This document shows positions 25,541-54,050 of a stretch of DNA of 56,018 nt, one piece after another. The stretch is taken from IMG/VR virus record IMGVR_UViG_3300005805_000111, positions 1-56,018 of that record, one strand, 5' to 3'. Origin of the DNA: a virus (Duplodnaviria; Caudoviricetes). Each line of letters starts with the position of its first letter. The stretch's first letter is position 1. The notes below the pieces were generated by a model that saw nothing but the letters and a program-made list of their open reading frames with translations, did not search any database and was not told the origin of the DNA. The translations under genes were made by a program, and so were the position numbers.

Positions 25541-25836
25541 TGCAGTACGTCAATTTCGAAAAAGGTTCATCCTCCGCAACAGAGCAGCCGCCCCAATATC
25601 TATTTATGGGGCGGGTTGCCCGCATAGAAGAAACAAACGTTTTTGTTGAAATCCCTGCTTTGGGTCCTGGGACTGTCGTAGGTCCGTGTGCGACCATACA
25701 TAGTGGCATTAAGCCTCTTCCCGAAGTTGGCGATATGGTTGTATGTGGGGCTATCGGAAATGCGTCTGACTATTTTGTTGTGCTCGGTAAAATAGTGTCT
25801 TATACGTTTTCGACTGTTAATGGCGGTTCTGCGTAA
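25540..25836 (+). CDS. Short baseplate spike protein (gpV/gp5 OB-fold-like)
   Basis: [12 protein letters not shown]...PLPEVGDMV...VVLG. Confidence 0.65.
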
Positions 25837-26471
25837 TGCCTAGGGAAACATTGATTCAGGTTCGTCGGGATACCGCCGCCAATTGGACCGCTGTCGACCC
25901 TGTTCTTGAGTCGGGTGAAATCGGTTTTGAAACTGATACTAATCAAATTAAGGTTGGTAATGGTTTAAATTTGTGGAGCGAGTTGCCATATGCGATTGGT
26001 CCGACTGGTCCGCTTGGCCCTACTGGTCCAACTGGTGCAGATTCGACTGTAACTGGCCCCACGGGGGCTGATTCTTTTGTTACGGGACCGACCGGCCCTA
26101 CCGGTCCAACGGGTGCAACTGGCCCGTCTGTAACTGTTTCCGATTCATCTCCTGAGATGTATTCACAAGGAGACCTATGGTTTGATTCGGCTAATGGCAA
26201 AGTTTTTATTTATTACGATTCTTTTTGGATTGAGTTCACTGGATCTCCTGGTGATTTTGGCCCGACGGGCCCGACGGGTCCCATTGGGGCAGACTCTACA
26301 GTTACGGGACCAATGGGGGCGACGGGGCCGACTGGGCCGACTGGGCCAACGGGGCCGACTGGGCCAACGGGGTCTACGGGACCCCAAGGACCATTATTTG
26401 CCCAGTTGGATGGTGGGGAGCCAAATACCATATATGGTGGCACTGCTATAATAGACGCGGGAGGAGTGTAG
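25836..26471 (+). CDS. Collagen-like fibre protein with Mtd/hyaluronidase-type N-terminal domain
   Basis: [11 protein letters not shown]...[23 protein letters not shown]; GPT repeats; GDLWFDS module. Confidence 0.8.
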
Positions 26472-27305
26472 ATGGCAATCCAAATTCAATTTCGTCGTGG
26501 TCTTGCTTCTGAGTGGATTTCTGCAAACCCAATTTTAGCGATTGGTGAATCTGGTTATGAAACCGACACCGGTAGGTTTAAGGTTGGTGATGGAACATCT
26601 AACTGGATTGCGTTGCCTTACTCTTCTGGCGAACCTGGCCCCACCGGGCCCTCTGGTCCGACTGGTCCGCTTGGCCCTACTGGTCCAACTGGTGCGGATT
26701 CGACTGTAACTGGCCCCACTGGGGCAGACTCTACAGTTACGGGACCGACCGGCCCTACCGGTCCAACGGGCCCTAGTGGGCCAACCGGCCCCAGTGGCCC
26801 TACCGGCTCTGCGTCAACAGTTACTGGCCCGACGGGCCCAACTGGTCCTGCTAGCGGGCCAACCGGGCCAACCGGGCCGACCGGTCCCTTGAGTGTCGTT
26901 GTTTCTACCTCTGAACTTTCTGCAGATGTAACGATGACAACAGCAAACCAGTTTTACAATGGTCCCAGCCTGACGCTTGACGCCGGTAACTACGTGATAC
27001 TTGCGCAGGCAGTTGTTAATACAACAACGACAAACGCAGGGCAGAGAGTAACGGTTAGGGTCTCTAACACATCAACTACATATTATGCAGAAGCGGAGCA
27101 ATCTAATGCTCCGAGCGGAAGCGGTGGTAGCGCTGCGATAGGTACTGTCACTGTTTTCTTCCATGTGTATGTGACGCTGGCAGCGAGCACTACTTTGCGC
27201 GTCGAGGCAACAAGCACTTTGGCTGGATCAACTCTTAAAGCGCAGGCTACGGACAATAGTTCGGTCGCAAACAAGTCAACAATTTTAACTGCAATTAAAG
27301 TATAG
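26472..27305 (+). CDS. Collagen-like fibre protein with Mtd-type N-terminal domain and beta-rich C-terminus
   Basis: [32 protein letters not shown]; GPT repeats. Confidence 0.8.
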
Positions 27306-27676: not shown

Positions 27677-29161
27677 ATGGCATCACCCGACTTTACCCAA
27701 TACGTTGACCTAACAATATTTGACCGCCAGCCAGGCGACGTTTATCTGGATGCTATTGACTACGCCCGGACAGTATTGCCTGAGTTCGAGCCGCGAGTCG
27801 GAGCAGTCGAAGACGCCCTACTGCAGTCAATAGCATATGTTGGTGGTGAACTTATTGCAGCAATTAATAGGCTGCCAAACGGACTATTTGAAGGACTTCT
27901 AAACCTTTTTCAGTTTCCTCGTCGGCAGGCCACTTTTGCTCGTGGATCGGCAATATTTACTGCCGTTGATGCAACAGGCGTGCGAATTCCTGCAGGAACC
28001 CAGGTGGGCTATCTCAACGAGGGCAACGATGGTACGGTCCTGTTTGTTTTTCAAACAGAAGAGCCAGCATCAATAGCAACTGGAGAGACGGTCTCTGGTC
28101 CAATACCTATCGCGGCGGTGGATACGGGCAACGTTCCACCAATTGAAAGCGGACAGCAGTTGCTGCTTCTTAGCACTAGCAACAAACTATTCTCAGTTGA
28201 ATTAAGTGGCGATATCTTAGATGGTAAGCCTGGCGAATCTGACTTTGAATACTTTGCTCGCGCAGCCACACATATTGCAAGTCTGTCTGAATCCCTTGCA
28301 ACTTCTCGCCAGATATCCAAAAAGATACTGTCAATACTTTCCGGGTCCGTCGGCACCGACCTAATTTTTGAAGATGTCGAATTTTCTAATGCTTGGCGGG
28401 CCATTACCTATGACCTCACGCAATGTCCGGTAATTCAACCAACCGGAACGTTTTCGCGTTCGTCTGGTACAGTTACAGTTACCGTGCCCGAGGGTCACGG
28501 TGTTACTGCTAGTTTTACGCCTGACTATATTCGTGTTTATACCGCACGCGACCCAGACGATCCAGAGTCAGAAGATGGCTCATCTTTCGATGGACTATTT
28601 TCGGTTGACTCCGTCACAGACACGACCATTTCGTGGTCTCAGGCCGGAGATGATGAAACATTCTCGGCAGATGCAACAAGGATATTTAATCTATCCAATA
28701 TTGCTACTGATGTCTCTAACGTAACCGGAAACGCCACTATCTTCATTTGTGATGAGCACGGAACACCTCCGACTGAGGCCGACGCAGAAGTAATTCTTAA
28801 TGAAATACGTGAACGGGCAATAGCCGGATTAACGCTTCACTACGTTCCTCCCCTGATTATTGACGTCGACATAACCTGCACCATCACCGTTAACGAATCG
28901 TATTCTGCAACAGAAGTTATTGATGTGGCCAAGCAATACATTGAGGACGCCATTTCTCCGCGTCTTTTTCAATGGTCGCCAATCCTTCGCCTCAACTACG
29001 CCATCGCTAAAATTGCGCAGGTTGAAGGAGTCGATGTAGTCAACTCAATATCATTCGATTTACCTGATGATACGGCCGCATCTATTGAGGACGGAGATGT
29101 GGTGTTTTCCTATCGGGGCACTTTGCCGCGAGTGTCAGCAACCATAACATCCGCAATATAA
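27677..29161 (+). CDS. Baseplate J-like protein
   Basis: RRQATFARG, IPAGTQV, ESDFEYFARA, VEGVDVV. Confidence 0.85.
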   Translation: MASPDFTQYVDLTIFDRQPGDVYLDAIDYARTVLPEFEPRVGAVEDALLQSIAYVGGELIAAINRLPNGLFEGLLNLFQFPRRQATFARGSAIFTAVDATGVRIPAGTQVGYLNEGNDGTVLFVFQTEEPASIATGETVSGPIPIAAVDTGNVPPIESGQQLLLLSTSNKLFSVELSGDILDGKPGESDFEYFARAATHIASLSESLATSRQISKKILSILSGSVGTDLIFEDVEFSNAWRAITYDLTQCPVIQPTGTFSRSSGTVTVTVPEGHGVTASFTPDYIRVYTARDPDDPESEDGSSFDGLFSVDSVTDTTISWSQAGDDETFSADATRIFNLSNIATDVSNVTGNATIFICDEHGTPPTEADAEVILNEIRERAIAGLTLHYVPPLIIDVDITCTITVNESYSATEVIDVAKQYIEDAISPRLFQWSPILRLNYAIAKIAQVEGVDVVNSISFDLPDDTAASIEDGDVVFSYRGTLPRVSATITSAI

Positions 29162-29163
29162 CT

Positions 29164-30849
29164 ATGGGCACAGCAGTCAACCTAATCAATGATGCTTCGT
29201 CGAGGTTTATGGACTTGCGCACGCCCACGATTGGGGACTGGGTCGCGGTGAGCGGCAACATACGGCCGACGATGCTTTATCGAAAGACCGCCGGATATGA
29301 CTCTATTCGCCTTTTTCCAGAAATTTCAGGCAATACATGTGAAATATACGTGGACTCAATGTTGTCTGATCCGACCACCGAAAAGTATTTATTTCACTGT
29401 TACATGATGGTTGTGGGCCCAGGTCTTGGACTGACATCTGTCACCGTGGAGGCGTCATCACCGACAACTGATATTAGTGTGTCGCGAGTCAATAGTATTG
29501 GTCGGAGCGAAGACGCCGATCAATGGTATGTAGTTAGGTCCAACCTTCTTGAACTACCGGCTGATAGCAACCCTTATCCAATTAAAATATCTATTTCGCT
29601 AGAAATTCCTAACGATGCGGAAGTGTTCTTGACGCGACCGACATTGATACCGTACTTTCATTTTGCCAATAACTTATTTTTGCGTCGTGTGTATGACTTC
29701 ATACCTGATTTTCTTATTGATCTTGATATCGAAACAAGCGAAAACGACGATCTTCCGGACATGCAGATGACTCGCTTTATGGATGCAGCATTAAAGACGC
29801 ATTTTGAGGTGGAGCAAGACTTTAATGCAATCTCATATGTTGACTTTGAAGAAGGCAGGATTCTCGGAAACCTTTCAACTTATAGTCAAATAGTTGACTA
29901 CGAGGTGATGCGTCGACGCTACACAAAATGGATTGCGGCAGTAACTGGAAACACCCTGCTTAGCCCTGGAATTGTTGCAACACCCTGGGGCAATCTGCCA
30001 ATTACATGGACATCAATGATGCAGGAAATTGACGAAACAGCGAACCCCTCTGTTTCTCCGACTGCCCTAGAACGAGAAAATCTTACCCTCACACCAAGTG
30101 TGCTTGAACGCGAGGACGACGTGGTGACGGCAACTGTACCAGCAACCGACTACTTGCAGGTCGGCGATTTTATAACTCTTAGTGGATCATCGTCAACTAA
30201 CGATGATTTTGACGGCATGTTCCGTATTTCGGCAAAAACCTCAACAACTATTTCTTGGGACGACGCTGGTGAAGACGAAATCGCCTCCGCAGGAGGAACG
30301 ATAACGGCTCTTTTGGGCCTTGTTACTGCCACGGTTCCATCTAGTACTGGGTTCTCTGCTGGCAACCATCTTTCTGTTCAGGGAACAACCGCTGCCGGAA
30401 CTTCGTTTAACGGGAACTTTCCAATATTTGAAACTACTTCAACGACCATAACGTGGCGTCAGCAGGGGACAACTGAAAGCGCCACGGGAACCGGCACCCT
30501 GACGCTGCTTGATACTGAGTGGATTGAGATCATGGGTTTCGATCCAGACGTTATTGATTTGCTCGACTATCAGCGCTGGGTTCTCGGCACCCAAGTTTTT
30601 GGGACACTCTCAGGAACGCGTATTGGACTTGAGACCGCAATAGAGAAAAACCTTATTAATGAGAAGCGATATTCCATTATCTATAACTATGACGGCGACC
30701 CGTGGCACATTAGGATTGAGACGGCTACGCCAGACACCGACTTTGGCGAAGAGGGTGCTGCTAACACAAGATTTCTGGGTGCTCTAGAACTGTGTAGGCC
30801 ATGTGGCTATTTGTTTACGCATGAATGCGTCCCGGCGGAGAATTTTTAG
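29164..30849 (+). CDS. Baseplate wedge protein (gpI-like) with inserted beta domains
   Basis: Follows gpJ; VYDFIPDFL, GTRIGLETAI, RPCGYLFTH. Confidence 0.6.
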   Translation: MGTAVNLINDASSRFMDLRTPTIGDWVAVSGNIRPTMLYRKTAGYDSIRLFPEISGNTCEIYVDSMLSDPTTEKYLFHCYMMVVGPGLGLTSVTVEASSPTTDISVSRVNSIGRSEDADQWYVVRSNLLELPADSNPYPIKISISLEIPNDAEVFLTRPTLIPYFHFANNLFLRRVYDFIPDFLIDLDIETSENDDLPDMQMTRFMDAALKTHFEVEQDFNAISYVDFEEGRILGNLSTYSQIVDYEVMRRRYTKWIAAVTGNTLLSPGIVATPWGNLPITWTSMMQEIDETANPSVSPTALERENLTLTPSVLEREDDVVTATVPATDYLQVGDFITLSGSSSTNDDFDGMFRISAKTSTTISWDDAGEDEIASAGGTITALLGLVTATVPSSTGFSAGNHLSVQGTTAAGTSFNGNFPIFETTSTTITWRQQGTTESATGTGTLTLLDTEWIEIMGFDPDVIDLLDYQRWVLGTQVFGTLSGTRIGLETAIEKNLINEKRYSIIYNYDGDPWHIRIETATPDTDFGEEGAANTRFLGALELCRPCGYLFTHECVPAENF

Positions 30850-30858
30850 GATAACTAG

Positions 30859-33150
30859 ATGACAATTTCACGTACAACACGCTTCGGCCTATACCGCTGG
30901 TCTTCGTTCATTGATGCATTTACTCGCACACAGATGGACGAATCATACGAAAACATTGAGCAGTATGGCTTAAAAATGCTGCGTGGCAGCGCACTTCCAG
31001 AAGCCGGATCAGCAGAATACGCTGGAACATTTTTTCTCAATACATCTGATGGCAAGTTGTATTACTACACCTCGACTGACGCTGATGGCGAGTGGATCAA
31101 GATCGAACCAAATGGAATTCGCTATAACGAAGCCCTAGCCAAGGGCGACATGCTTGTGGCCCCAGGGCCCGCCGAATGGGAAAGGCTGCCCGCTGGTTCG
31201 AGAAGCCAAATCTTAACGGTCATAAGCGAATCCGGAGATGTTGGATGGACCAGCATTCTGAATAATCGTGGCGACATCCTTACATCTGATGGCGCAAATA
31301 ACTCTATTCTTCCTGCTGGCGACAACTTTACGTCTTTGCGGGCAGACAGTTCCCAAACCGGTGGACTTGAGTGGGATCTGATAGTTGAGGCCAACCTCGC
31401 CTCATCATCAATCACCACGCCAAAAATTGCTGACAACAGCATTTCGTCAACAGTCATCGCTGATGGCGCGGTCACGGAAAGTATTCTTGCGCCATCAGCG
31501 GTGATCACATCAAAGTTTGCTTCTGGTGCAGTAAATACAGAAAAAATTGTTGATAATGCGGTAACCAGCGTTAAGATTGCAGACCTAACAGTTTCTTCCA
31601 GTAAATTTGCCAATGGCTCAGTAACTAATTCTAAAATTGTTAGTGGTGGAGTCGTCACCTCGGCTATTACGGATGGCTCTGTTACGACAGCAAAAATCGC
31701 CAATAGTGCAGTTCTTTCTCCAAAGATTGCGGACTCGGCGGTGGTGTCTAGCAAGTTTGCCGCCGGGGCAGTCACGACAGATAAAATTTTGGATAGCGCT
31801 ATTGCATCAGCAAAAATTGGTGTTTCTGCAGTTATCACAGATAAGTTTGCCGCGTCAGCAGTTGATACGACCGCAATAGCCGACGCATCCGTGACGACAG
31901 CAAAGTTTGATTCGTTGAGTGTAACCTCTGAAAAACTTGCGGACTCATCTGTTGTTACTGCAAATATTGTTGATAGTGCCGTAACTACAAATAAAATTGC
32001 CGATTCTGCTGTTACTGAAAGCAAGATCGCAAGCCTGACCTTAACTGCTCAGGATTTTGCTGATGCGTCTGTTGGGACTGACGCCATCGCGTTGAATTCA
32101 ATTAGCAGCGACAAGATGCGACAGTCCGTTGGGCTGAGTGTTGTCGGGAACCCTAATGCTTCTACGGGCAATGTTGCGGATATTGTTGCCGCGACGGACC
32201 ACGCACTTTTGAAGCGCAGTGGCTCTAACCTTTTGTTTGGCTTGATTGAGTCTGGCGACCTCGGCTCCGGCGTAATCACTACTTCTAAGTTTGCTAGCGG
32301 AGCGGTGTCGGATATCAATATATCTAGCGCCGCCGCAATTTCGCTGACTAAACTTGGAACCGGACAGTTAAAAAACGAAACACAGGTTTCAACCGGTAAT
32401 TATTTAAACAGTTCTTTTACTGCGGATAAACTATTTACCGGCGTTAACGGCGTTGGAGTATGGGAGTCCTATACCCCAAATCTATATCTTATCCGCGCCA
32501 AAGAAGTGGTTAAAGATGGGACAAGCGTCTACTGGGCGCCTCAGTTCAATAGGTTAAGCAACCCTACACCCTGGCTTGAGCCCTCGTCGCGGTATACAGT
32601 TAGATCTGCTCGCTACTGCAGAATGAATAACCTATGTATCGTTTATGCAAGCATAGAATATAATTTTGAGAATACTATTTCTCCTAATTACACCTTGCCG
32701 TCTGGTGTCTCATATAACAGTACGACCGTAAAACCTAGTACAATTATTCCATCATGGTTTTTTATAAGTTTGCCATTTCAGCCTGAAAACCAGAGCCTAG
32801 TTAATTGCGGAGTAGTCCGGATTATCTCCACTCGATACATAAGCAAAACTGTTACAGGAGGAGGCATAACGAGTACCCTGTCTGTCCCTATCAACAGAAA
32901 GTTTGCTCCGACAGCGGTTATTTATAACAACATGCTTACAGCAATAGTCTCTGGACCAGATGATCAATGGGACCTAGAAGACTTTACAACCAGCAATACT
33001 TCTACTCTGGATTTAGGTAGAGAAGGACGAACAGAAGATGGCAATATTGGTGCAGACTACGAAATTGCGCTTCGTAACAGGGCAACCGCTGTGACTTTTG
33101 TTCCAGGACTAAGAGTTGATTTCACCATCACCTATGGAATAGCAACGTAG
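30859..33150 (+). CDS. Tail fibre 1 with decapeptide (AVTxxKIADx) repeat shaft
   Basis: TTRFGLYRWS N-terminus, KGD modules, tandem 10-aa repeats, distinct C-terminal tip. Confidence 0.8.
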   Translation: MTISRTTRFGLYRWSSFIDAFTRTQMDESYENIEQYGLKMLRGSALPEAGSAEYAGTFFLNTSDGKLYYYTSTDADGEWIKIEPNGIRYNEALAKGDMLVAPGPAEWERLPAGSRSQILTVISESGDVGWTSILNNRGDILTSDGANNSILPAGDNFTSLRADSSQTGGLEWDLIVEANLASSSITTPKIADNSISSTVIADGAVTESILAPSAVITSKFASGAVNTEKIVDNAVTSVKIADLTVSSSKFANGSVTNSKIVSGGVVTSAITDGSVTTAKIANSAVLSPKIADSAVVSSKFAAGAVTTDKILDSAIASAKIGVSAVITDKFAASAVDTTAIADASVTTAKFDSLSVTSEKLADSSVVTANIVDSAVTTNKIADSAVTESKIASLTLTAQDFADASVGTDAIALNSISSDKMRQSVGLSVVGNPNASTGNVADIVAATDHALLKRSGSNLLFGLIESGDLGSGVITTSKFASGAVSDINISSAAAISLTKLGTGQLKNETQVSTGNYLNSSFTADKLFTGVNGVGVWESYTPNLYLIRAKEVVKDGTSVYWAPQFNRLSNPTPWLEPSSRYTVRSARYCRMNNLCIVYASIEYNFENTISPNYTLPSGVSYNSTTVKPSTIIPSWFFISLPFQPENQSLVNCGVVRIISTRYISKTVTGGGITSTLSVPINRKFAPTAVIYNNMLTAIVSGPDDQWDLEDFTTSNTSTLDLGREGRTEDGNIGADYEIALRNRATAVTFVPGLRVDFTITYGIAT

Positions 33151-33162
33151 GATTTTACTAAA

Positions 33163-35247
33163 ATGGCTGTAACTACTACAACACGATTCGGTCTCTATAG
33201 ATGGTCCGATGATTCTGATCGTATTATTCGAGAACACCTCGATACATCCCATGCAAATATTGAGACCTTTGGGGCAAAGTTTCTTTCTGGCACCTCTCTT
33301 CCGACAATTGGATCAGCCGAGTACGCCCGCACATTTTTTATCAACACCTCGACAAAAGTTATATATTTTTACTCTTCTGACGATGCCTTAGGCGAATGGG
33401 TTGCAATTGGTACAGACGTCATTCTAGTAACGCTTGCAGAAAATAAGGGGGATCTCCTTGTTGCAACTGGGCCAGACGAGTGGGACATTCTTCCTGTTGG
33501 AACATTTGGGCAAGTTCTTACAGTTACTGACAATTTGTCGAATATTGGGTGGGCAACGATACTTGTTACAAAGGGAGATTTACTTTCGCACGATGGCTCA
33601 TCGCTGATTAATCTTGGGGTCGGACTGGATAATTATCTGCTGATTGCAGACAGTACTGAACCTAGTGGATTGAAGTGGTCTTTAGTCAATGAGTCTTCAA
33701 TTAGTGATGGCGCGGTGACCACATCAAAGTTTCAACCTTCGTCGGTTATCGAATCCAAATTTTCAGTTGAGGCCGTTACCTCGACTCAGATTGCTGATGG
33801 TGCCGTTACAACAGAAAAAATCTTGGCCAACTCTGTAACCGAACCTAAACTTGCTTCTGCCTCTGTTATTACTGACAAAATACTAAATGGCGCAGTCACC
33901 GAAATAAAAATTGCTGACAATTCTATTGGTTTTCTAAAGTTCGCCCCTGGTGCGGTTACAACAAGCAAGATAGTTAATTCAGCCGTTGACTCTAGCGCAA
34001 TTGCTTCTGCTGCTGTTGCCACTGGAGTCATCGCGGATGGCGCTGTTATTACTACAAAAATAAGCGATGCAAATGTTCTATCTAGCAACATAGCGGACCG
34101 CTCGGTCACTTCGGCAAAAATTGCTAATGGCGCTGTTATTTCTTCAAAACTTGAGCCGCTATCTATTACGACAGGCAAATTTGCTGATTCATCTGTTCAG
34201 ACCGCGAAAATAGGGAATTCTGCAGTTGTTTCTAGCGCTATTGCGACATCTTCTGTGACTGAATCTAAACTTGCAGATCAGGCTGTGACAGCGCTTAAGT
34301 TTGCTGATGGCTCCGTGACTTCGGCCAAAGTTGCTGATGGGGCTGTAACGGGCGGCAAGATACTTGCTCTGAATGTCACCAGCGATAAGGTTTCTGCCAA
34401 CTCTGTGTTGTCGTCGGTTCTTCGTCAGTCTGCTGGCTATTCTGTTATTGGAAATTCGAGCAACTCGGTTTCTGATGTTACGGATTTGACGGCAAGTTCC
34501 AATGGCGCGCTACTTCAAAGGGCTGCTGGCTCTCTTGGTTTTTCAACGTTGATAACGAACTCTATTTCTGATGGCGCGGTTACAAGCGTAAAAATTGCTT
34601 CAAACACCATTGTTGATAGTGATATTGCCGCTAACGCAAACATTTCGTTGACAAAGTTGGGTAGCGGTATTCTTCAGTCTTCAAATACTGTAAGTACCGG
34701 TAATTATCTGCCTAGTTCTGTTACGTGGCCGAAATTGAGTTCTGCGCCAACTTCCGAGGGGGTAGGCGTCTGGTTGACCTATGTGCCGCAAGTTTATAAG
34801 TATGTTTCTTCATGGGCTACCGTGACCGACCTGGAGTTGCTCCTCCCCAGTCAATATGACGTATTTTATGCCAAGTATTGCAAAATCAACGAAATGATAA
34901 TTGTGCAATGCCGCATTACAATGAATGACAATTTTAACTGGCAGAACCAAAATAACAGCGGTGCAATAGTCACCCTGCCGTTTACGCCGACAAATACTGA
35001 CTATATGTGTATCGGATCTGGGTACTTTACAAACATGGACTCGCCACAAAACCAAAGCAATACTTATGCGCTAAACGTTAATGAGGTCAGTGGGGTTGTT
35101 TTTGGTATGCCAGAGCCAAATCTTCACGCGAACCAGGGCGCCACCGTTAGGCTCCCACCTGGAGATCTAACCCCATACCTCGTTTCAACATTTTTTGAAG
35201 ATTTCGATACAATTAGTTTTAAAGTCCAATACGCAACGACAGCATAG
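33163..35247 (+). CDS. Tail fibre 2, paralog of fibre 1
   Basis: Same architecture as 30859..33150. Confidence 0.8.
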   Translation: MAVTTTTRFGLYRWSDDSDRIIREHLDTSHANIETFGAKFLSGTSLPTIGSAEYARTFFINTSTKVIYFYSSDDALGEWVAIGTDVILVTLAENKGDLLVATGPDEWDILPVGTFGQVLTVTDNLSNIGWATILVTKGDLLSHDGSSLINLGVGLDNYLLIADSTEPSGLKWSLVNESSISDGAVTTSKFQPSSVIESKFSVEAVTSTQIADGAVTTEKILANSVTEPKLASASVITDKILNGAVTEIKIADNSIGFLKFAPGAVTTSKIVNSAVDSSAIASAAVATGVIADGAVITTKISDANVLSSNIADRSVTSAKIANGAVISSKLEPLSITTGKFADSSVQTAKIGNSAVVSSAIATSSVTESKLADQAVTALKFADGSVTSAKVADGAVTGGKILALNVTSDKVSANSVLSSVLRQSAGYSVIGNSSNSVSDVTDLTASSNGALLQRAAGSLGFSTLITNSISDGAVTSVKIASNTIVDSDIAANANISLTKLGSGILQSSNTVSTGNYLPSSVTWPKLSSAPTSEGVGVWLTYVPQVYKYVSSWATVTDLELLLPSQYDVFYAKYCKINEMIIVQCRITMNDNFNWQNQNNSGAIVTLPFTPTNTDYMCIGSGYFTNMDSPQNQSNTYALNVNEVSGVVFGMPEPNLHANQGATVRLPPGDLTPYLVSTFFEDFDTISFKVQYATTA

Positions 35248-35256
35248 TTTATTGCC

Positions 35257-37335
35257 ATGACGATACAAACAACAACACGGTTCCGTCTAACGCGATGGTC
35301 ATCGGATAACGATGCCTTAACACGCGGTCAAATAGATTCTGCTCATAATAATATCGAACTTTATTTGGCCAAAATGATTGCTGGTTCATCCATTCCTTCT
35401 GTTGGAACGGCAGCCTACGCAAAAACAATTTTCTTGAACAGAACTAATAATAAAATTTATTATTACTCTAGTGAGGATTCTTCTGGGTCTTGGATTTTTG
35501 TTGAAACAGACGTTGTTGCGGCAACAATTGCTGACGCGAAGGGCGACCTAATCGTTGCATCTGGTCCAAATGTGTGGTCCAAACTTCCAGTTGGTTCGGT
35601 AAATCAAATTCTTGCAATACTTGACTCGGCCAATACTGTCGGGTGGTCAACAATATTGGCGCAAAAGGGTGATTTGCTGACCATTGATGGGCAATCCTTG
35701 ACTCGTATCCCCGTTGGCACCGATAATCAGATTCTAAATTCTAACAGCGCTCTGGCCACTGGTCTTGGATGGACTCTCGCCACAGAAAATAACATTTCTA
35801 ACAGCAGCATTTCGTCCGTGAAAATTAATGATAGTGCCGTTACGGCACCCAAAGTTGTTGCTTCTGCCGTATTGACGGCAAAATTTGCAACTGATTCTGT
35901 AACTGAAACAAAAATTGCTGATGGCGCAGTGCAGAGTGCCGCGCTTGCGAACGATGGGGTCACAACCAATAAAATTCTGGACGCCGCGGTAACTGAAACT
36001 AAAATTTTATCTGGTTCAGTAACTACTGCTGCGCTAGCAGACAATTCCGTAGACTCACCAAAGTTTGCTGCTGGCGCGGTCACGTCGTCAAAATTTGCGC
36101 AGTCTGCTGTAACGGCACAAAAACTTGCTACCAGTTCAGTGACATCGACAACAATCGCCGCTGGAGCGGTAGATACGCCCGCCCTTGGGACTTCGGCGGT
36201 TACTCAAGCAAAAATTGTTAACAATGGTGTTTCCACTGTTAACATAGGTGATTCATCTGTAATCGCGGAAAAAATTGCCGATGGGGCTATTACTTCGCAA
36301 AAAATTGTGGCACACGCCGTAACCACCGCAACTCTCGGCACATCATCTGTAATTGATACAAAGATTGCCAATGGCGCAATCATTAATAGGCTGATTGGAA
36401 ACTCTGCCGTTACTACGGATAAGTTGGCTAATGATTCTGTTTCGACCAGGACTATAGGAAATCTTGCAATCGTCTCGCCTAAATTTTCTACGAACTCAGT
36501 GACAAATTCTAGAATTCGGAAGTCATCCGGGTTGAGTGTCCTGGGTAACCCTGGTAATACGACGGCAAATATTAGCGATATTGTCGCGGCAAACGATAAT
36601 ACGGTTTTGCGCCGAGCAGGAAACTTTTTGTCGTTTGCACAAATTTCAACGCCGAATTTTGCAGATGGCGCCGTATTATCTGGCGCTATTGCTGACGGCG
36701 CGCTCTTTGATGCACAGTTTTCTCCGTCAGCCAACATTGGGTTGACAAAACTAGCCCCAGGTGCTCTTCCATCTGCAATCAAGACTGGAACTGTTAACTA
36801 TGTTGATAGTTCTATAACTGTATCTAAACTTAGCGCTGAACAAAGTTCTGCTGGCGTTGGAGTCTGGTTGAACTATGTGCCCCAGATTTATGCTCTTGTT
36901 AATAGCGGGTCGACATATAGCACTTTTGTCTTGGTGCCAGGTCAATCTGTGACAAGCATGTATGCGAAATATATGCGAATAAATAAACTTTGTTTTGTTA
37001 CCTTTAATGCGATTATTGCGCCCTCTTTCAGCAACCTAACCAATTTCGATCCAGAAAATTGCGCCCTGGAGATTACGCTGCCTTTCACTGCGGCAACCTC
37101 AAATCGGACTATTGTTGGTAGCGGGCACGTGATAAATGTTGACACGAACACAAACAGCAGGACTGTCCATGCGGTGATAAATAATGGTCGTGTCGCGTTG
37201 GTCTATGAGCACAATGGAGTGGCGTCCACAGGAAGCGCTGACGACGAATACCGAACTAACTCTTTTTCTGATATTGCCTATTTTCTTGAAAACCCCGACC
37301 CGATAGGGTTTTCGATAATATATGAGATTCTGTAG
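35257..37335 (+). CDS. Tail fibre 3, paralog of fibre 1
   Basis: Same architecture as 30859..33150. Confidence 0.8.
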   Translation: MTIQTTTRFRLTRWSSDNDALTRGQIDSAHNNIELYLAKMIAGSSIPSVGTAAYAKTIFLNRTNNKIYYYSSEDSSGSWIFVETDVVAATIADAKGDLIVASGPNVWSKLPVGSVNQILAILDSANTVGWSTILAQKGDLLTIDGQSLTRIPVGTDNQILNSNSALATGLGWTLATENNISNSSISSVKINDSAVTAPKVVASAVLTAKFATDSVTETKIADGAVQSAALANDGVTTNKILDAAVTETKILSGSVTTAALADNSVDSPKFAAGAVTSSKFAQSAVTAQKLATSSVTSTTIAAGAVDTPALGTSAVTQAKIVNNGVSTVNIGDSSVIAEKIADGAITSQKIVAHAVTTATLGTSSVIDTKIANGAIINRLIGNSAVTTDKLANDSVSTRTIGNLAIVSPKFSTNSVTNSRIRKSSGLSVLGNPGNTTANISDIVAANDNTVLRRAGNFLSFAQISTPNFADGAVLSGAIADGALFDAQFSPSANIGLTKLAPGALPSAIKTGTVNYVDSSITVSKLSAEQSSAGVGVWLNYVPQIYALVNSGSTYSTFVLVPGQSVTSMYAKYMRINKLCFVTFNAIIAPSFSNLTNFDPENCALEITLPFTAATSNRTIVGSGHVINVDTNTNSRTVHAVINNGRVALVYEHNGVASTGSADDEYRTNSFSDIAYFLENPDPIGFSIIYEIL

Positions 37336-37417
37336 TGACTAACTTTGCTGTAGATTTGTTCTGAACAATAATCAAATATTTGGCATAATGGTATGAGTCA
37401 TTTCGCGGAGGTGAGCG

Positions 37418-37738
37418 TTGCAGTCGAACATCCTTTATGCCGCCGTGTCTTCAGTTATTGCTGCCGCTATCTCGGCTTTTGTGGCCCTACGTTCAAAAAA
37501 ATCAGATATTTTAATCGCTTCAGCATCTAATAACAGTTTGGAGATACAGCACATTTTTGACGGTTATGCTCGAATTGTTGAGGATCTTCAAACTGAAGTT
37601 CTGCGTCTCCAGGGCGAACTTGAAATGCTGAGGGTTGAACAGCAGGAGTGCGATTCCTATCGTCAGACCCTTGAGATGGAGGTCCTGGAACTGAAGCATC
37701 GGATTGCCGTCGTTGAGGGTCGTTCAAATGGCGACTGA
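37418..37738 (+). CDS. Membrane-anchored coiled-coil protein (possible lysis accessory)
   Basis: GGAGGTG SD, N-terminal TM helix, heptad-like C-terminus. Confidence 0.6.
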   Translation: MQSNILYAAVSSVIAAAISAFVALRSKKSDILIASASNNSLEIQHIFDGYARIVEDLQTEVLRLQGELEMLRVEQQECDSYRQTLEMEVLELKHRIAVVEGRSNGD

Positions 37739-37961
37739 AAAAGAGCAATTCGAAGAAATTATTAAACAGGTTATGCCTGATAGGCTAATCACTAATTTCA
37801 TTCTAATAGTCGAGATTGTTGACGCCGATAACGAGGAACTTTCTGTTAATGTGAGCAGTGGTATGACTCCATGGCTAGCAATGGGCATGCTGTCATATGC
37901 CGAAAATATGATCAAAACAAGAGAAGATGAACTCTTGGACGAAGATGAGGATGATGAATGA
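37728..37961 (+). CDS. Hypothetical acidic protein
   Basis: Likely start ATG 37728; coupled to both neighbours. Confidence 0.7.
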   Translation: MATEKEQFEEIIKQVMPDRLITNFILIVEIVDADNEELSVNVSSGMTPWLAMGMLSYAENMIKTREDELLDEDEDDE

Positions 37962-38311
37962 AAAGTCAGCAAATTGTTGATCAGACAGCCAAGGGTGGAA
38001 TCCTCGGCCTGGTCGGATATTTTCTTATTGAGGTTGGTGTCGATCCTGGGATTGTTGCGGCGCTGATTCCGCTTTTGGCAGCAATTCTGGCTTGGGCGTC
38101 GGGTCGAGTCGGAGATAAGGCAATTGCCTCATTTCTTGGTTCTGAACCGATCCGCGGCGCAGTCAAGAGCGCCGTACGGGCCGTTGACAGGGAGGTTAAG
38201 CAGGCCGAGGCTGCGTCTGATAAGAAGACCGCCGCTAAGCGGGCTGCGGCCAAGAAGCCGGTGGCTAAGAAGACCGTGGCGAAGAAGCCCGCAAAGAAGA
38301 AGCCACAGTAA
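37958..38311 (+). CDS. Holin-like membrane protein with Lys/Ala-rich tail
   Basis: Two hydrophobic segments followed by KKTAAKRAAAKKPVAKK... Confidence 0.5.
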   Translation: MKSQQIVDQTAKGGILGLVGYFLIEVGVDPGIVAALIPLLAAILAWASGRVGDKAIASFLGSEPIRGAVKSAVRAVDREVKQAEAASDKKTAAKRAAAKKPVAKKTVAKKPAKKKPQ

Positions 38312-38327
38312 TTCCCGCTACCTTGGG

Positions 38328-38368
38328 ACGGCAGGCCAGACCCTTAATAAGGGTCTGGCTTTTGCCGT
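38328..38368 (+). terminator. Intrinsic terminator-like hairpin
   Basis: gccagaccctta-a-taagggtctggc followed by tttt, with outer acggca/tgccgt pairing. Confidence 0.8.
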
Positions 38369-38427
38369 TCTGAGGGTCAACGGCTTTATTTAAGCGATAC
38401 AATATTAGTTGCGGTTAAGGAGACTAG

Positions 38428-38775
38428 ATGCTTGCTGGAACACACAATTTTACGATTGACCAGGGCGCATATTGGCAGCGCTCCCTTAAACTATTTAACC
38501 CTGATGAAAGCGTGTATAACCTTACCGGCTATACGGCAAGAATGCACTTGCGCAGGGACCTTAAGGCAACCACTCCTGTTATTGCTCTAACCACGGAGAA
38601 TGGTCGAATTTCGCTTGGTGGGTCCAATGGCACTATTACTTTGACATTGCAGGCTGCTGATACTGCCACCATTCAGCACGATTGCGTGTATGACCTAGAA
38701 ATCGTAACTAACGACGGCAAGCCTTATCGGGTGGTCCAGGGCAATATTAGGCTTAATCCTGAGGTTACGCGGTGA
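38428..38775 (+). CDS. Structural adaptor protein of the appendage module
   Basis: AAGGAG SD; NFTIDQGA...YNLTGYTARMHLR...VYDLEI..G...VVQG. Confidence 0.65.
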   Translation: MLAGTHNFTIDQGAYWQRSLKLFNPDESVYNLTGYTARMHLRRDLKATTPVIALTTENGRISLGGSNGTITLTLQAADTATIQHDCVYDLEIVTNDGKPYRVVQGNIRLNPEVTR

Positions 38776-39296: not shown

Positions 39297-40661
39297 ATGG
39301 CGCAGAAGTTTCTCACAAATATTGACCTCAACGGCAATCAACTCTATAAAGGAACCTTTCAAAAGGTTGCTACCGATCCCGATACCAACCTTTTCGAAGG
39401 TTGGACCGTCTATAACACCGCCGAAGACTGCATCAAATACTATGACGGTACAACCTGGAAGAAACTTATTAAGGGTGTCACGTCGGGTGGAACTTATTCC
39501 AACGCTCTCACGGTCTCCGAAAGCAATGGGGCAATCACCCTTACCCTTAACCTTGCCAACGGTAGTGATGCTGGGCTCCTCTCCTCTACTTTCTATAGCC
39601 TCCTCAATGCCGCCACCGCCAGCCCCACTGTCAGCACACTTGTCCTGCGTGATGCCGCTGGACGCTTTCAGGCAGAGGCTCCTAGTGCCGATAAGGACGT
39701 AGCAAACAAGGCGTATGTTGATGCGGCTCGCTCTGGCCTTGATGTCAAGGCTTCCGTCAAACTGGCAACCGACGCCGTATTGCCGACCTTCACGCATTCT
39801 GCCGGGGTCTTGACCGCCACCACCAACGGTGCGCTGACTATCGACGGAGTTACCCTTCAGGCTGGAACAGACGAGGGAATCCGCGTTCTCGTCAAAAACG
39901 AGACATCAACCAATGCCCCATACAATGGCATATACGTTGTCACCAATACTGGTGGAGCAGGCGCTGCCTATGTTCTAACGCGGGCAGATGATGCCGACAG
40001 CAACACTGAGGTTAATCCCGGACTGTTTACCTTTGTTGAGCAGGGAACCAACTGGGCCGACTCGGGGTGGGTGCTGACGACAGATGGCTCGATCACCCTC
40101 GGGACTACCAACCTCACGTTCGTTCAGTTCTCTGCTGCCGGTCAAAGCATTGCTGGCAATGGTCTTACCAAGACCGGCAACACAATTGATGTTGTCGGAA
40201 CCGCGGACAGAATTAGTGTTGGCGCCGATTCTGTTGACATTGCCTCAACCTATGTTGGTCAGTCAAGCATTACCACTCTCGGTACGATCACGACCGGTAC
40301 ATGGAATGGTACTGATGTTGCGGTTACTGCCGGTGGCACTGGTGCATCGACCGCTTCTGGGGCGCGGACAAATCTTGCTTCCGAGCCAGCAAATGGTTCC
40401 AACGAGGAAACTGGAAGAACCACGACCACACCGGCCTTGGCTCGCATTTCGAGTCAGGGCTGTAGCGCATCTGTTACTGGCATCTCTACGACCACAGTGA
40501 CGCATAATTTCGGCACAAAAAATGTTGTCGTTCAGATTTACGAGAATTCGACTGGTGAAACCGTCATTGGTGACGTCGTCCGAACAAGCACAAGCGCCGT
40601 CACAGTGACATTGCTTGGCACTATCTCTGCCAACGACTACTATATTGTTGTCAGTGGTTAA
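39297..40661 (+). CDS. Tail fibre-like structural protein
   Basis: ANKAYVD..RSGLDVKASVKLAT, RVLVKNE...NGIYVV, LTRADDAD, VTHNFGT. Confidence 0.75.
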   Translation: MAQKFLTNIDLNGNQLYKGTFQKVATDPDTNLFEGWTVYNTAEDCIKYYDGTTWKKLIKGVTSGGTYSNALTVSESNGAITLTLNLANGSDAGLLSSTFYSLLNAATASPTVSTLVLRDAAGRFQAEAPSADKDVANKAYVDAARSGLDVKASVKLATDAVLPTFTHSAGVLTATTNGALTIDGVTLQAGTDEGIRVLVKNETSTNAPYNGIYVVTNTGGAGAAYVLTRADDADSNTEVNPGLFTFVEQGTNWADSGWVLTTDGSITLGTTNLTFVQFSAAGQSIAGNGLTKTGNTIDVVGTADRISVGADSVDIASTYVGQSSITTLGTITTGTWNGTDVAVTAGGTGASTASGARTNLASEPANGSNEETGRTTTTPALARISSQGCSASVTGISTTTVTHNFGTKNVVVQIYENSTGETVIGDVVRTSTSAVTVTLLGTISANDYYIVVSG

Positions 40662-40722
40662 GCACTAAAATTGGCTCACAGGCCCCGAGGGGACTCTTGA
40701 GTCGAACGGATTGACTGAGGTC

Positions 40723-43971
<3,249 letters not shown>

Positions 43972-45806: not shown

Positions 45807-48011
<2,205 letters not shown>

Positions 48012-48868: not shown

Positions 48869-49285
48869 ATGGCAATTGATTTTCCGGATAGTCCTGTTGA
48901 CGGCCAGGTTTTTACCCCAGTCGGAAGCAATAAAACCTGGGTATACAGTTCCTCTTCCGGTGCGTGGCATGCTGCCTCGGCGCCGATCGGACCGACCGGA
49001 CCCACTGGTGCTGCTTCGACAGTTACCGGACCTACCGGACCCAAGGCTATTACTGTTACTGGCCCAACTGGGCCCGTTGGGGCAGTTACCGGTGACATAT
49101 GGTATGATTCTGAGACTGGAAAAACATATGTTCGCTACGACAATTTTTGGGTGGAGTCCGGTGGAGAAATAGGTCCTGCTGGGCCTACCGGTCCTACAGG
49201 TCCTACCGGCAGCACTGGTCCGACCGGGCCCTCTCCGGCAGGCGACGACGACCAAGTTATTCTATCCGCACAGGTTTTTAACTAG
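48869..49285 (+). CDS. Short collagen-like adaptor
   Basis: MAIDFPDSP, GPT runs, GDIWYDS module, ends VILSAQVFN. Confidence 0.75.
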   Translation: MAIDFPDSPVDGQVFTPVGSNKTWVYSSSSGAWHAASAPIGPTGPTGAASTVTGPTGPKAITVTGPTGPVGAVTGDIWYDSETGKTYVRYDNFWVESGGEIGPAGPTGPTGPTGSTGPTGPSPAGDDDQVILSAQVFN

Positions 49286-52801: not shown

Positions 52802-53404
52802 ATGTCAAAAACTAAAATTGAAAGTAAGGCAGCGCAAGTAGTTAACAATCTTTTTGATGAAGAAGTGTTTAATGGCATACAGAAATACGTAGAAAATGTT
52901 GTGCCAGCACTAAGATGCGCTGTTGACAAAGACATTTTTGTTAGAAATTATATACATAACAATAGTTTTTTTGTTGATATTCATCATCAACTTGCAGATT
53001 TTGCATCTGAAATGTTTAAAGAACGCGTAAAGCCCTCTTATTGTTTTTTGTCATTGTATAAAAATGGTGGAAAGTGCCCTTTGCATATTGACAGGCCCCA
53101 GTGTCGATATACAATTGATTACCTTGTTCGCGCAACATCATCCAAACCATGGCCAATATCCATATCTGACCCGTTGTCCAAGTTTGAACTAACAAAAATA
53201 CTGGATGGACATCCGAAAGACCAAGATATAATCGATAGGATTATTTCAGATAATACTTGGACTACGATTGATCTTCAGCCAAACGACGCTGTACTCTATT
53301 CTGGCACAAACTCTTGGCACTACCGCCCTACAGCACTACAGGGAGAAGCAGATCTAGTGTTTTTTCATTTTGTCCCGGAGGGTTTCAGTGACCAACTTAA
53401 TTAA
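52802..53404 (+). CDS. 2OG-Fe(II) oxygenase-like protein
   Basis: LHIDRPQC (HxD), DAVLYSG...WHYR. Confidence 0.75.
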   Translation: MSKTKIESKAAQVVNNLFDEEVFNGIQKYVENVVPALRCAVDKDIFVRNYIHNNSFFVDIHHQLADFASEMFKERVKPSYCFLSLYKNGGKCPLHIDRPQCRYTIDYLVRATSSKPWPISISDPLSKFELTKILDGHPKDQDIIDRIISDNTWTTIDLQPNDAVLYSGTNSWHYRPTALQGEADLVFFHFVPEGFSDQLN

Positions 53405-54011: not shown

Positions 54012-54050
54012 GCCAGGTGCGGTCAGCATCATTCGTGCTAGATTGCGTTC

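What the first reader, a model, noticed from the sequence alone, without database searches (positions are those of the whole stretch)
30859..37335. Three diverged tail-fibre paralogs with exactly conserved shaft register: candidate heterotrimeric, three-tip fibre
Seen: despite extensive substitution, the Arg of the post-repeat R(Q/K)S motif is residue 421 in all three (1260 nt from each ATG: 32119, 34423, 36517). The GVGVW Trp is residue 535, 537 and 537, after which the tips diverge. Tandem decapeptide repeats would normally drift in copy number. Inference: selection to stay in register, as expected if the three chains co-assemble into one heterotrimer or must reach identical length. Phage fibres are normally homotrimers.
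Basis: partly seen in the sequence, partly recalled or inferred. Interest (0 to 1): 0.75.

Follow-up and report, generated by a model that had tools for sequence, protein, structure and literature searches.

The report
Probable three-chain phage tail fibre
Three neighbouring, strongly diverged copies of a phage tail-fibre gene keep exactly the same shaft length and place their bulky core residues at heights that never coincide, which suggests that they build one fibre from three different chains instead of the usual three identical ones.

Summary
The three tandem genes (763, 694 and 692 aa) align without gaps to about residue 527. Each has 24 decapeptide repeats (aa 181-420), Arg421, and the GVGVW Trp at 535/537/537. 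All 29 of 29 family proteins found in public data have the same landmark distance of 249 aa.

The new evidence concerns repeat position 10, a core position that is usually I, L or F. Within one phage, aromatic residues at this position never fall in the same layer in two chains. There are 0 coincidences in 16 native pairs against 16.0 expected. Only the zero register shift gives 0; the other 48 shift combinations give 6-21. Swapping in an ortholog from another contig creates clashes in 60 of 96 cases. In 13 of 24 layers the aromatic sits on a different chain in different phages.

This fits an in-register 1:1:1 heterotrimer with at most one aromatic residue per core layer. Presumed homotrimeric relatives carry an aromatic residue there in 2.3% of units, against about 20% here.

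Nothing is shown experimentally. The shaft fold is unsolved, and three copies are documented in only 4 contigs. A few heterotrimeric viral receptor-binding modules were published in 2025-26, so I class this as a new variant of a known kind. The scan has noted a putative three-paralog fibre-tip heterotrimer before, on other DNA.

The parts
27677..29161 (+). Baseplate J-like wedge protein (494 aa). Context: start of the baseplate-fibre gene block.
   Evidence: Pfam PF04865 Baseplate_J, E 1.3e-13. PHROG 6 baseplate wedge subunit.
29164..30849 (+). 561-aa protein between the wedge gene and the fibre genes. Probable peripheral wedge or fibre-docking protein (inferred).
   Evidence: No Pfam or NCBIfam hit and no tblastn hit in the phage collection. 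It is 31% identical over 74 aa (E 2e-10) to the 396-aa protein that holds the same place between the J-like gene and the fibre gene in L004.
30859..33150 (+). Fibre chain 1 (763 aa, class 1). Anchor aa 1-85, two roughly 40-aa modules aa 86-180, shaft aa 181-420, neck aa 421-535, tip aa 536-763.
   Evidence: ORF. PHROG 892 and 28766 tail fiber, E 6.6e-44 and 4.7e-33. Landmarks. Orthologs P0020, P0268, P0270, P0011-13 and P0015-17.
33163..35247 (+). Fibre chain 2 (694 aa, class 2), same layout; tip aa 538-694.
   Evidence: ORF. PHROG 28766, E 2.1e-56. Orthologs P0002-P0008.
35257..37335 (+). Fibre chain 3 (692 aa, class 3), same layout; tip aa 538-692.
   Evidence: ORF. PHROG 892, E 7.3e-32. Orthologs P0019, P0122-P0126, P0009 and P0121.
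31399..32118 (+). Shaft of chain 1: 24 decapeptides. Aromatic residue at position 10 in layers 4, 7, 12, 15, 17 and 22.
33703..34422 (+). Shaft of chain 2: 24 decapeptides. Aromatic residue at position 10 in layers 1, 2, 8, 16 and 20.
35797..36516 (+). Shaft of chain 3: 24 decapeptides. Aromatic residue at position 10 in layers 3, 9, 10 and 23.
32464..33147 (+). Tip of chain 1 (228 aa): fibre-head-like beta domain with an extra insertion. A low-confidence loop spans aa 698-735.
   Evidence: AF2 monomer model: pLDDT 70-88 for aa 540-700. VIA match to Noumeavirus NMV_189: Z 9.5, rmsd 3.3, 132 aligned.
34774..35244 (+). Tip of chain 2 (157 aa): fibre-head-like beta domain.
   Evidence: AF2 monomer model: pLDDT mostly 70-90. 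VIA matches: NMV_189 Z 10.5 (rmsd 3.4, 128 aligned), avian reovirus sigmaC Z 6.4, Zamilon Zav_19 Z 6.3. Weak Foldseek rows to reovirus sigma1 head, adenovirus knob and lactococcal phage RBP heads, E 0.008-0.3.
36868..37332 (+). Tip of chain 3 (155 aa). It is 29% identical to the chain 2 tip. The same fold is inferred; this tip was not modelled alone.

Best explanation
The three genes encode the three different chains (A, B, C) of one heterotrimeric tail fibre of an uncultivated contractile-tailed phage.

Shown: three tandem paralogs; a shaft of exactly 24 decapeptides in every member of all three ortholog classes; and a rule that, within one phage, at most one of the three chains carries Phe or Tyr at repeat position 10 in any layer.

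Inferred: position 10, and probably position 5, of the three chains point into one shared core at the same height. A layer holds either one aromatic residue with two Ile or Val, or only Ile and Leu.

Under this reading a chain paired with copies of itself would stack two or three aromatic residues in 2-8 layers. I infer that only the in-register A:B:C combination packs cleanly, that the pattern therefore acts as a steric code for 1:1:1 assembly, and that the three shafts must have the same length.

The conserved N-terminal anchors (aa 1-85) dock the fibre on the baseplate wedge, whose genes lie directly upstream. The three unlike fibre-head domains would form one pseudo-threefold head with three different faces or grooves for receptor binding.
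For: (1) Length invariance. The Trp172-to-Arg421 distance is 249 aa in 29 of 29 family proteins.

(2) Exclusion. The exact P of no coincidence in the four complete triples is 1.4e-2, 3.2e-2, 3.5e-2 and 2.3e-5. A further native pair, P0270/P0003, also has 0.

(3) Register specificity. When chains 2 and 3 are shifted by -3 to +3 repeats, only (0,0) gives 0 clashes. The other 48 combinations give 6-21.

(4) Position specificity. The between-chain covariance of side-chain volume is negative at position 10 (z -4.72; 0 of 506 shifted nulls as low). It is weakly negative at position 5 (z -1.96; 8 of 506) and not at the other eight positions.

(5) Co-variation. Replacing one chain of a native triple by an ortholog from another contig gives at least one clash in 60 of 96 swaps, against 0 of 4 native triples. 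Among cross-contig cross-class pairs, 72 of 226 clash. In 13 of 24 layers the aromatic residue is held by different chains in different contigs, for example layer 4 by chain 1, 2 or 3.

(6) Layer make-up in 96 native layers. Sixty-four layers have exactly one aromatic residue (FII 51, FIV 7, FIL 4, ILY 1, IMY 1), 32 have none, and 0 have two or three. Leu or Met occurs in 6 of 64 aromatic layers against 25 of 32 others (Fisher P 1.8e-11).

(7) Comparison with other fibres. In 39 other decapeptide-repeat proteins from the same search, the equivalent position is aromatic in 25 of 1078 units. In this family it is aromatic in 105 of 557 units by the same pattern, and in 131 of 648 in-register cells.

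(8) Tips. The tips of chains 1 and 2 match the fibre-head fold (NMV_189 Z 10.5 and 9.5). The abstract of bioRxiv 10.1101/2023.01.23.525297, seen in the listing, describes that fold as a fibre-head fold and mentions a trimer.

(9) Complex prediction. The job on residues 391-end of the three chains gave 'weak support': score 0.51, best of 3 controls 0.20. By the tool's calibration, the mark was reached by 116 of 157 solved complexes and 2 of 215 mismatched pairs. At 0.60 or under it was reached by only 18 of those 157 and by both mismatches. The runs agree in at least 95% of contacts and the partner's pLDDT is at least 74. No homotrimer was run, and paralogs of a trimeric fibre may pass by likeness alone.

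(10) Gene layout. The three genes are 9-12 nt apart on one strand.
Against: There is no experiment, and no solved structure of this decapeptide shaft was found. That position 10 faces a shared core is therefore inferred from the statistics alone.

Co-location of paralogs in relatives is inferred from identical 'longest contig' lengths, not from DNA. No DNA of close relatives could be fetched.

Complete triples are documented in only 4 contigs including the window. No class 2 protein was found for contigs 35347, 53016 and 11885, no class 1 for 54105, and no class 3 for 27274.

The lineages are related, so the per-contig P values are not independent.

AF2 monomer models fold the shaft as a single-chain beta-solenoid, but at pLDDT below 50 in W2 and at most 67 in W1.

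Phage fibres studied so far are nearly all homotrimers. A distant relative with the same anchor has one fibre gene at this place.
Confidence: 0.72

Rival explanations
1. The genes encode three separate homotrimeric fibres, that is, alternative or co-displayed receptor-binding proteins that share one anchor type. Equal length is kept either by geometry (all must reach the cell surface together from the same baseplate sites) or simply because the diverged repeats cannot slip.
For: Homotrimers are the norm: P-SCSP1u gp28, which has weak profile similarity to this shaft, is a homotrimer (passages of PMC10575957). The fibre atlas paper treats fibres as homotrimers (passages of PMC12143355). The repeats are not similar at the DNA level, so a constant unit number needs no selection. 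A distant relative has a single gene at this place. Tips diverge faster than anchors, as in host-range proteins.
Against: This reading gives no reason why aromatic core residues of different paralogs should avoid the same layer, only at zero shift, nor why they should hop between chains without ever doubling. It would require 2-8 all-aromatic layers per homotrimer, although such residues are 8-9 times rarer in other fibres of this repeat type.
Confidence: 0.15
2. Each shaft is a single-chain beta-solenoid (pentapeptide-repeat-like). The three proteins are monomeric arms, or associate only through the anchor or the head.
For: AF2 monomer models of W2 and W1 build the shaft as a solenoid. VIA matches for the W2 model are Z 9.1-9.7 to pentapeptide-repeat proteins such as Qnr, MfpA and AlbG. 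For the W1 model they are Z 9.2-10.8 to solenoids of several kinds. The family profile weakly hits designed and natural pentapeptide-repeat proteins in the PDB (E 0.015-0.39).
Against: Shaft pLDDT is below 50 in the W2 model and at most 67 in the W1 model. A monomer-only predictor cannot build an intertwined trimer. No Pfam pentapeptide family is hit. Position 10 would be buried within one chain, which leaves the cross-chain exclusion unexplained. By the tool's own note, Z of about 8-13 is common for repeat folds.
Confidence: 0.07
3. The chains form hetero-oligomers of other or variable make-up (A2B, AB2, random mixing, or a larger bundle like the phiKZ hetero-hexamer).
For: A hetero-hexameric fibre complex of gp131 paralogs is described for phiKZ (passages of PMC13250141). 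The present data do not measure stoichiometry.
Against: Exclusion holds for all three pair types, A-B, A-C and B-C. Any trimer with two copies of one chain would double its aromatic layers. Three classes are kept in each of the four complete sets.
Confidence: 0.05

Closest known systems
Tripartite tail proteins of virophage DSLV2 (J Virol 2025, PMC12724248; abstract and passages read)
   Same: Three consecutive paralogous fibre genes are proposed to form one 1:1:1 heterotrimer. The paper reports that the tripartite architecture is widely conserved among related virophages.
   Different: The DSLV2 proteins are short (about 58 kDa for the whole complex, a fibre of about 16 nm) and gp37-tip-like. 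They sit on a virophage capsid. Their case rests on AlphaFold3, molecular dynamics and co-purification. Here the chains are about 700 aa with a 240-aa repeat shaft on a myovirus baseplate, and the evidence is a core-residue exclusion rule. Sequence relatedness between the two was not tested.
ORF60-ORF61-ORF62 heterotrimer of mycobacteriophage Jabs (bioRxiv 10.64898/2026.07.24.740622; passages read)
   Same: A heterotrimeric, probably receptor-binding module built from ORF60, ORF61 and ORF62, seen by cryo-EM on a tail tip.
   Different: Jabs is a siphophage and the module is anchored to Dit. It has beta-sandwich domains and no long repeat shaft. Whether the three Jabs proteins are paralogs was not checked here.
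Hetero-hexameric fibre complex of phiKZ gp131 paralogs (Nat Commun 2026, PMC13250141; passages read)
   Same: Several paralogs with a shared N-terminal region and different C-terminal domains join in one fibre complex.
   Different: The phiKZ complex is a six-chain alpha-helical bundle with propeller tips, not a three-chain beta-repeat shaft.
Decapeptide-repeat tail fibres of T7-like cyanophages and many other phages (PHROG 892, 28766, 21412; P-SCSP1u gp28, PMC10575957)
   Same: The same shaft repeat type: PHROG E values down to 2e-56, and tblastn hits in 98 phage records at 31-47% identity over 24-46% of W1.
   Different: gp28 is reported as a homotrimer. Whether the others are single-copy homotrimers is assumed, not checked. 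By the pattern counts, aromatic residues at position 10 are 2.3% against 18.9% here. Unit numbers vary. None covers 80% of W1.
Complement C1q (A, B, C chains) and 'steric matching' designed heterotrimeric coiled coils (recalled from general knowledge; no call)
   Same: As recalled, three paralogous chains from neighbouring genes form one stalk and a heterotrimeric globular head. In the designs, one large core residue packs against two small ones per layer to enforce A:B:C.
   Different: These are a collagen triple helix or an alpha-helical coiled coil, in animals or in design work. This is an analogy of principle only.

Membership tests
Phage tail fibre with decapeptide-repeat shaft (PHROG 892 / 28766) | Significant match to the family profiles | tested here: met
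   All three proteins match PHROG 892 and 28766, E 7e-32 to 2e-56.
Phage tail fibre with decapeptide-repeat shaft (PHROG 892 / 28766) | Encoded in the tail or baseplate module of a tailed phage | tested here: met
   The sheath, tube, tape measure and Baseplate_J genes lie upstream on the same strand. The same order J - wedge-like - fibre is seen in L004.
Phage tail fibre with decapeptide-repeat shaft (PHROG 892 / 28766) | Trimeric fibre with a terminal receptor-binding head | tested here: inconclusive
   The tips match the fibre-head fold (Z 10.5 and 9.5 to NMV_189). The oligomeric state was not measured.
Heterotrimeric viral fibre built from three paralogs (DSLV2 type) | Three consecutive paralogous fibre genes | tested here: met
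   the record holds only these three matches.
Heterotrimeric viral fibre built from three paralogs (DSLV2 type) | All three classes kept in related viruses | tested here: inconclusive
   Four of 9 contig sets are complete. In 5 sets only two classes were found. No DNA of relatives was obtained.
Heterotrimeric viral fibre built from three paralogs (DSLV2 type) | Chains contact each other in one assembly (co-variation or predicted interface) | tested here: met
   Register-specific exclusion and chain-hopping of the core aromatic residues. The complex prediction gave weak support only: 0.51 against a best control of 0.20.
Heterotrimeric viral fibre built from three paralogs (DSLV2 type) | 1:1:1 co-purification or a structure | not testable with these tools
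   Needs co-expression, native mass spectrometry or cryo-EM.
Heterotrimeric viral fibre built from three paralogs (DSLV2 type) | Sequence homology to the DSLV2 proteins | not tested
   The DSLV2 sequences were not fetched.
Pentapeptide-repeat proteins (Rfr fold) | Match to the Pfam pentapeptide families | tested here: not met
   No Pfam family at E up to 0.01 for any of the three proteins.
Pentapeptide-repeat proteins (Rfr fold) | Single-chain quadrilateral beta-helix | tested here: inconclusive
   Low-confidence AF2 monomer models resemble it (Z 9-10). PDB profile hits have E 0.015-0.39.

The most novel reading that the evidence does not exclude
This would be a natural steric code for obligate heterotrimers in a beta-structured fibre. 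Each of the 24 core layers accepts at most one aromatic side chain, contributed by any one of three paralogous chains. Only the in-register A:B:C assembly is then free of clashes, and self-assembly is disfavoured. Over evolutionary time the aromatic residue can hop from chain to chain but never doubles. The resulting asymmetric fibre would give each chain its own contact with the non-threefold baseplate site, and a head with three different receptor faces. Long heterotrimeric tail fibres would then be a real, overlooked class in tailed phages.
Probability: 0.55. Interest if true: 0.85.

Novelty: new variant of a known kind. Interest (0 to 1): 0.72.

Why it matters
Tail fibres decide which bacteria a phage can infect. 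They are modelled, engineered and annotated on the assumption that three identical chains form each fibre.

A long fibre built from three different chains would change how such gene triplets are read. They would be one receptor-binding organ with three unlike faces, not three alternative host-range proteins. It would also change how fibres should be modelled, with A:B:C input rather than AAA.

The one-aromatic-per-layer pattern is a directly testable rule. It could be tested by moving or doubling a Phe and asking whether assembly fails. It could also serve as a design principle for heterotrimeric beta-fibres. The pattern gives a cheap sequence test for co-assembly that could be run on other tandem fibre paralogs.

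Tried and rejected
Fetching DNA of close relatives failed. Scans of viral contigs with W2, A1, P0002 and A2, of metagenome contigs with A2 and of genome contigs with A2 gave only distant loci (L004-L012) or nothing. Gene order and copy number in relatives therefore rest on equal contig lengths in the protein tables.

Looking for a split or short class 2 protein also failed. A search of W2 region 421-694 among shorter proteins gave one unrelated 370-aa hit at 33% identity.

Cluster look-up gave no accession numbers that could show gene adjacency.

A sequence search of the PDB with W2 alone gave 0 hits. Pfam and NCBIfam gave no family for the three proteins.

The repeat-by-repeat similarity matrix between paralogs showed no preferred diagonal. 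Ordinary alignment therefore neither supports nor contradicts the gapless register.

Promoter and terminator scans were near shuffle background: 23 against 18.0±4.1 and 18 against 11.0±3.1. No clear Shine-Dalgarno motif was seen upstream of the three starts.

I rejected recent duplication or gene conversion as the cause of equal length. The paralogs are 32-47% identical in protein (gapless) and share no exact DNA word longer than 15 nt. Each class has its own orthologs in other contigs.

Compensation at position 5 (Ala with Ile) is only a hint: z -1.96, and 7 of 10 Ala layers hold an Ile.

A homotrimer-versus-heterotrimer comparison by complex prediction was not possible because only one job is allowed.

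Earlier notes of this scan on this genome: none.

Full report
WHAT IS THERE

The window is a 56,018-base virus record that CheckV rates 38% complete. It encodes a contractile-tail module: sheath 16818-18305, tube, tape measure 19625-23713, and a Baseplate_J protein at 27677-29161. The sheath's nearest cultured relatives are Gordonia and Arthrobacter myophages at about 36-40% identity (92 records, all below 60%). The phage is therefore uncultivated, and its host is unknown.

After the J-like gene and a 561-aa gene without family hits come three same-strand ORFs, 9-12 nt apart. W1 is 30859-33150 (763 aa), W2 is 33163-35247 (694 aa) and W3 is 35257-37335 (692 aa). They are the only three matches to W2 in the record. 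All three match tail-fibre PHROGs 892 and 28766 (E 7e-32 to 2e-56). None matches any Pfam or NCBIfam family.

CHECK OF THE OBSERVATION

The Arg of R(Q/K)S is residue 421 in all three proteins. The GVGVW Trp is residue 535, 537 and 537. Residues 181-420 read as 24 decapeptides (A-D-x-A-V-T-x-x-K-I) in each. Gapless identities are 46-47% (aa 1-180), 32-33% (shaft) and 40-45% (aa 421-525).

MAFFT put cancelling gaps of about 10 and 20 residues into the array. The zero diagonal of a repeat-by-repeat score matrix is no better than other diagonals. Similarity alone therefore does not fix the internal register.

The repeats are not DNA repeats. Tandem Repeats Finder finds no 30-nt period. Units are 45-47% identical in DNA, and the paralogs share no exact word longer than 15 nt. 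Equal length by itself could be inertia.

RELATIVES

A search with W2 gave 2722 proteins at E up to 1e-3 among 8000 scored candidates. Nearly all share only the repeat region. About 20 are full-length relatives. A search with W3 added more, and a cluster look-up added two.

These proteins fall into three ortholog classes, each closer to one of W1, W2 or W3. In 29 of 29, the landmark Trp-to-Arg distance is 249 aa. The Arg-to-GVGVW distance is 116 aa in 25 of 27 and 114 aa in 2 of 27. Tips range from 137 to 270 aa.

Going by identical 'longest contig' lengths, four contigs including the window hold one member of each class. Five more hold two classes. A class 2 protein was not found for the contigs of 35347, 53016 and 11885 b, even among shorter proteins. 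I could not fetch DNA of any close relative. 'Always three copies' is therefore not established.

A distant relative, L004, shares the anchor at 31% identity. It has the same gene order: J-like gene, wedge-like gene, fibre gene, then the same four small downstream genes. It has one fibre gene of 437 aa with a different shaft and a His-rich tip. A profile of aa 1-180 found the roughly 85-aa anchor on many short fibres of other architectures. The triplication with a 24-unit shaft is therefore a derived feature of a small clade.

THE DECISIVE TEST

I read all shafts in the fixed register from the landmark Trp and tabulated each repeat position. Position 5 is V/I and position 10 is I/F/L. Phe or Tyr occupies 131 of 648 cells at position 10.

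Within a phage, the aromatic layers of the three classes never coincide:
- In 16 native cross-class pairs there are 0 coincidences against 16.03 expected.
- The exact probabilities for the four complete triples are 1.4e-2, 3.2e-2, 3.5e-2 and 2.3e-5.
- When chains 2 and 3 are shifted by up to three repeats either way, only the unshifted register gives 0. The other 48 combinations give 6-21.

Against a cyclic-shift null, the between-chain covariance of side-chain volume is strongly negative at position 10 (z -4.72, 0 of 506). It is marginally negative at position 5 (z -1.96, 8 of 506) and absent at the other eight positions.

Of 96 native layers, 64 hold exactly one aromatic residue (51 of them F+I+I), 32 hold none, and none holds two or three. 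Leu or Met is almost confined to the layers without an aromatic residue: 25 of 32 against 6 of 64 (P 1.8e-11).

Inheritance of one lucky ancestral pattern does not explain this. Swapping one chain for an ortholog from another contig produces clashes in 60 of 96 cases, against 0 of 4 native triples. Among cross-contig pairs, 72 of 226 clash. In 13 of 24 layers the aromatic residue sits on different chains in different contigs, and layers 4, 5 and 15 use all three chains.

In 39 other proteins with this repeat, the same position is aromatic in 25 of 1078 units, against 105 of 557 here by the same pattern. That those proteins are single homotrimeric fibres is my assumption.

INTERPRETATION

The simplest reading is that the position-10 side chains of the three different chains meet at the same height in one core, which has room for one aromatic ring. 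That requires an in-register 1:1:1 heterotrimer. It explains why all three shafts must have 24 units, and it disfavours self-association, because each chain would stack its own 2-8 aromatic layers. The contact itself is inferred. No solved structure of this shaft was found: the PDB sequence search gave 0 hits, and the profile search gave only weak or partial hits.

STRUCTURE PREDICTIONS

AF2 monomer models are poor overall (mean pLDDT 51.5 and 50.7), but the tips are modelled at pLDDT about 70-90. Both tips match the Noumeavirus NMV_189 structure: Z 10.5, rmsd 3.4, 128 aligned for W2, and Z 9.5, rmsd 3.3, 132 aligned for W1. The W2 tip also matches avian reovirus sigmaC and Zamilon Zav_19 (Z 6.3-6.4). 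Foldseek gives weak rows (E 0.008-0.3) to reovirus sigma1 heads, adenovirus knobs and lactococcal phage receptor-binding heads. The abstract of bioRxiv 10.1101/2023.01.23.525297, seen only in a search listing, calls NMV_189 a fibre-head fold. I therefore expect one composite head rather than three separate tips.

The models draw the shafts as single-chain solenoids resembling pentapeptide-repeat proteins (Z about 9-10), but at pLDDT below 50 for W2 and at most 67 for W1. A monomer predictor cannot do otherwise. This is kept as a rival.

It returned 'weak support': score 0.51 against 0.20 for the best of 3 controls. By the tool's calibration, the mark was reached by 116 of 157 solved complexes and 2 of 215 mismatches. 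At 0.60 or under it was reached by only 18 of the 157 and by both mismatches. The runs agree in at least 95% of contacts and the partner's pLDDT is at least 74. Homotrimers were not run, and paralogs of a trimeric fibre may pass by likeness, so this adds little.

WHAT IS KNOWN

Full-text searches for heterotrimeric fibres found three precedents:
- The DSLV2 virophage tripartite tail proteins, supported by AlphaFold3, molecular dynamics and co-purification (PMC12724248; abstract and passages).
- The ORF60-61-62 heterotrimer of mycobacteriophage Jabs by cryo-EM (bioRxiv 10.64898/2026.07.24.740622; passages).
- The hetero-hexameric fibre complex of phiKZ gp131 paralogs (PMC13250141; passages).

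The other 'heterotrimer' hits that I opened concern baseplate wedges or ejection proteins. The phrases 'heterotrimeric fiber', 'heterotrimeric fibre', 'heterotrimeric RBP' and three similar ones occur in 2 papers of the library. One is the DSLV2 paper and the other is unrelated. The fibre atlas paper speaks of homotrimer fibres.

I found no description of a long repeat-shaft heterotrimeric phage fibre or of a one-aromatic-per-layer rule. The library lacks most subscription journals, and I saw no supplements.

I did not test it.

VERDICT

The heterotrimer reading is supported by an independent, register-specific co-variation signal (confidence about 0.72), but it is not proven. It is a new variant of a recently recognised kind.

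Noticed in passing
window 37418-38775; L004 11393-12589: Four small genes follow the fibre gene(s) in the same order in the window and in the distant relative L004. They are a transmembrane plus coiled-coil protein of about 106 aa, an acidic protein of about 80 aa, a small membrane protein, and a 115-aa protein (PHROG 1084; weaker match to 'L-shaped tail fiber protein assembly', PHROG 3304). They may be fibre-assembly helpers or lysis genes.
   Followed up: partly
window 25836-27305, 40711-43971, 45810-48011, 48869-49285: There are several further fibre-like genes. Many of their PHROG hits are collagen-like minor tail or tail fibre families (for example PHROG 5073, 6320 and 30509). There is also a 454-aa fibre-like gene at 39297-40661. 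The phage seems to carry an unusually rich set of fibres.
   Followed up: partly
window 30859-31398 (aa 86-180 of each fibre chain): Residues about 90-135 and 135-175 are two copies of a roughly 40-aa module (KGD..., ...G..W). In the profile search this module recurs 5-17 times in many large proteins of up to 3606 aa. It is a widespread building block of unknown structure.
   Followed up: partly
window 27677-30849: By eye, the J-like protein and the 561-aa protein share a short module (…FDG.F.I….T.TTISW…G.DE…). It seems to occur once in the former and three times in the latter. This was not tested.
   Followed up: no
window 28000-38000: The baseplate-fibre block has lower G+C (0.44-0.48; fibre genes 0.444-0.460, GC3 0.385-0.419) than the sheath gene (0.561, GC3 0.581) and most of the window (0.50-0.53).
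   Followed up: no
window 31122-32024 (-), 33786-34178 (-), 35727-36083 (-), 36204-36782 (-): Long antisense ORFs (118-300 aa) lie inside the repeat shafts. Their translations are repeat-like mirror images. I took them to be by-products of the repeat composition, not genes.
   Followed up: no
window 52802-55790 and 13299-14369: There are auxiliary-type genes: PHROG hits annotated ferrochelatase / 2OG-Fe(II) oxygenase (52802-54011) and two glycosyltransferases (13299-14369, 54051-55790).
   Followed up: no
window 9481-10788: The terminase large-subunit ORF (435 aa) matches only the C-terminal part of PHROG 979 (profile positions 364-600 of 642) in its best stretch, in two stretches. The gene may be split or interrupted. 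Not examined.
   Followed up: no
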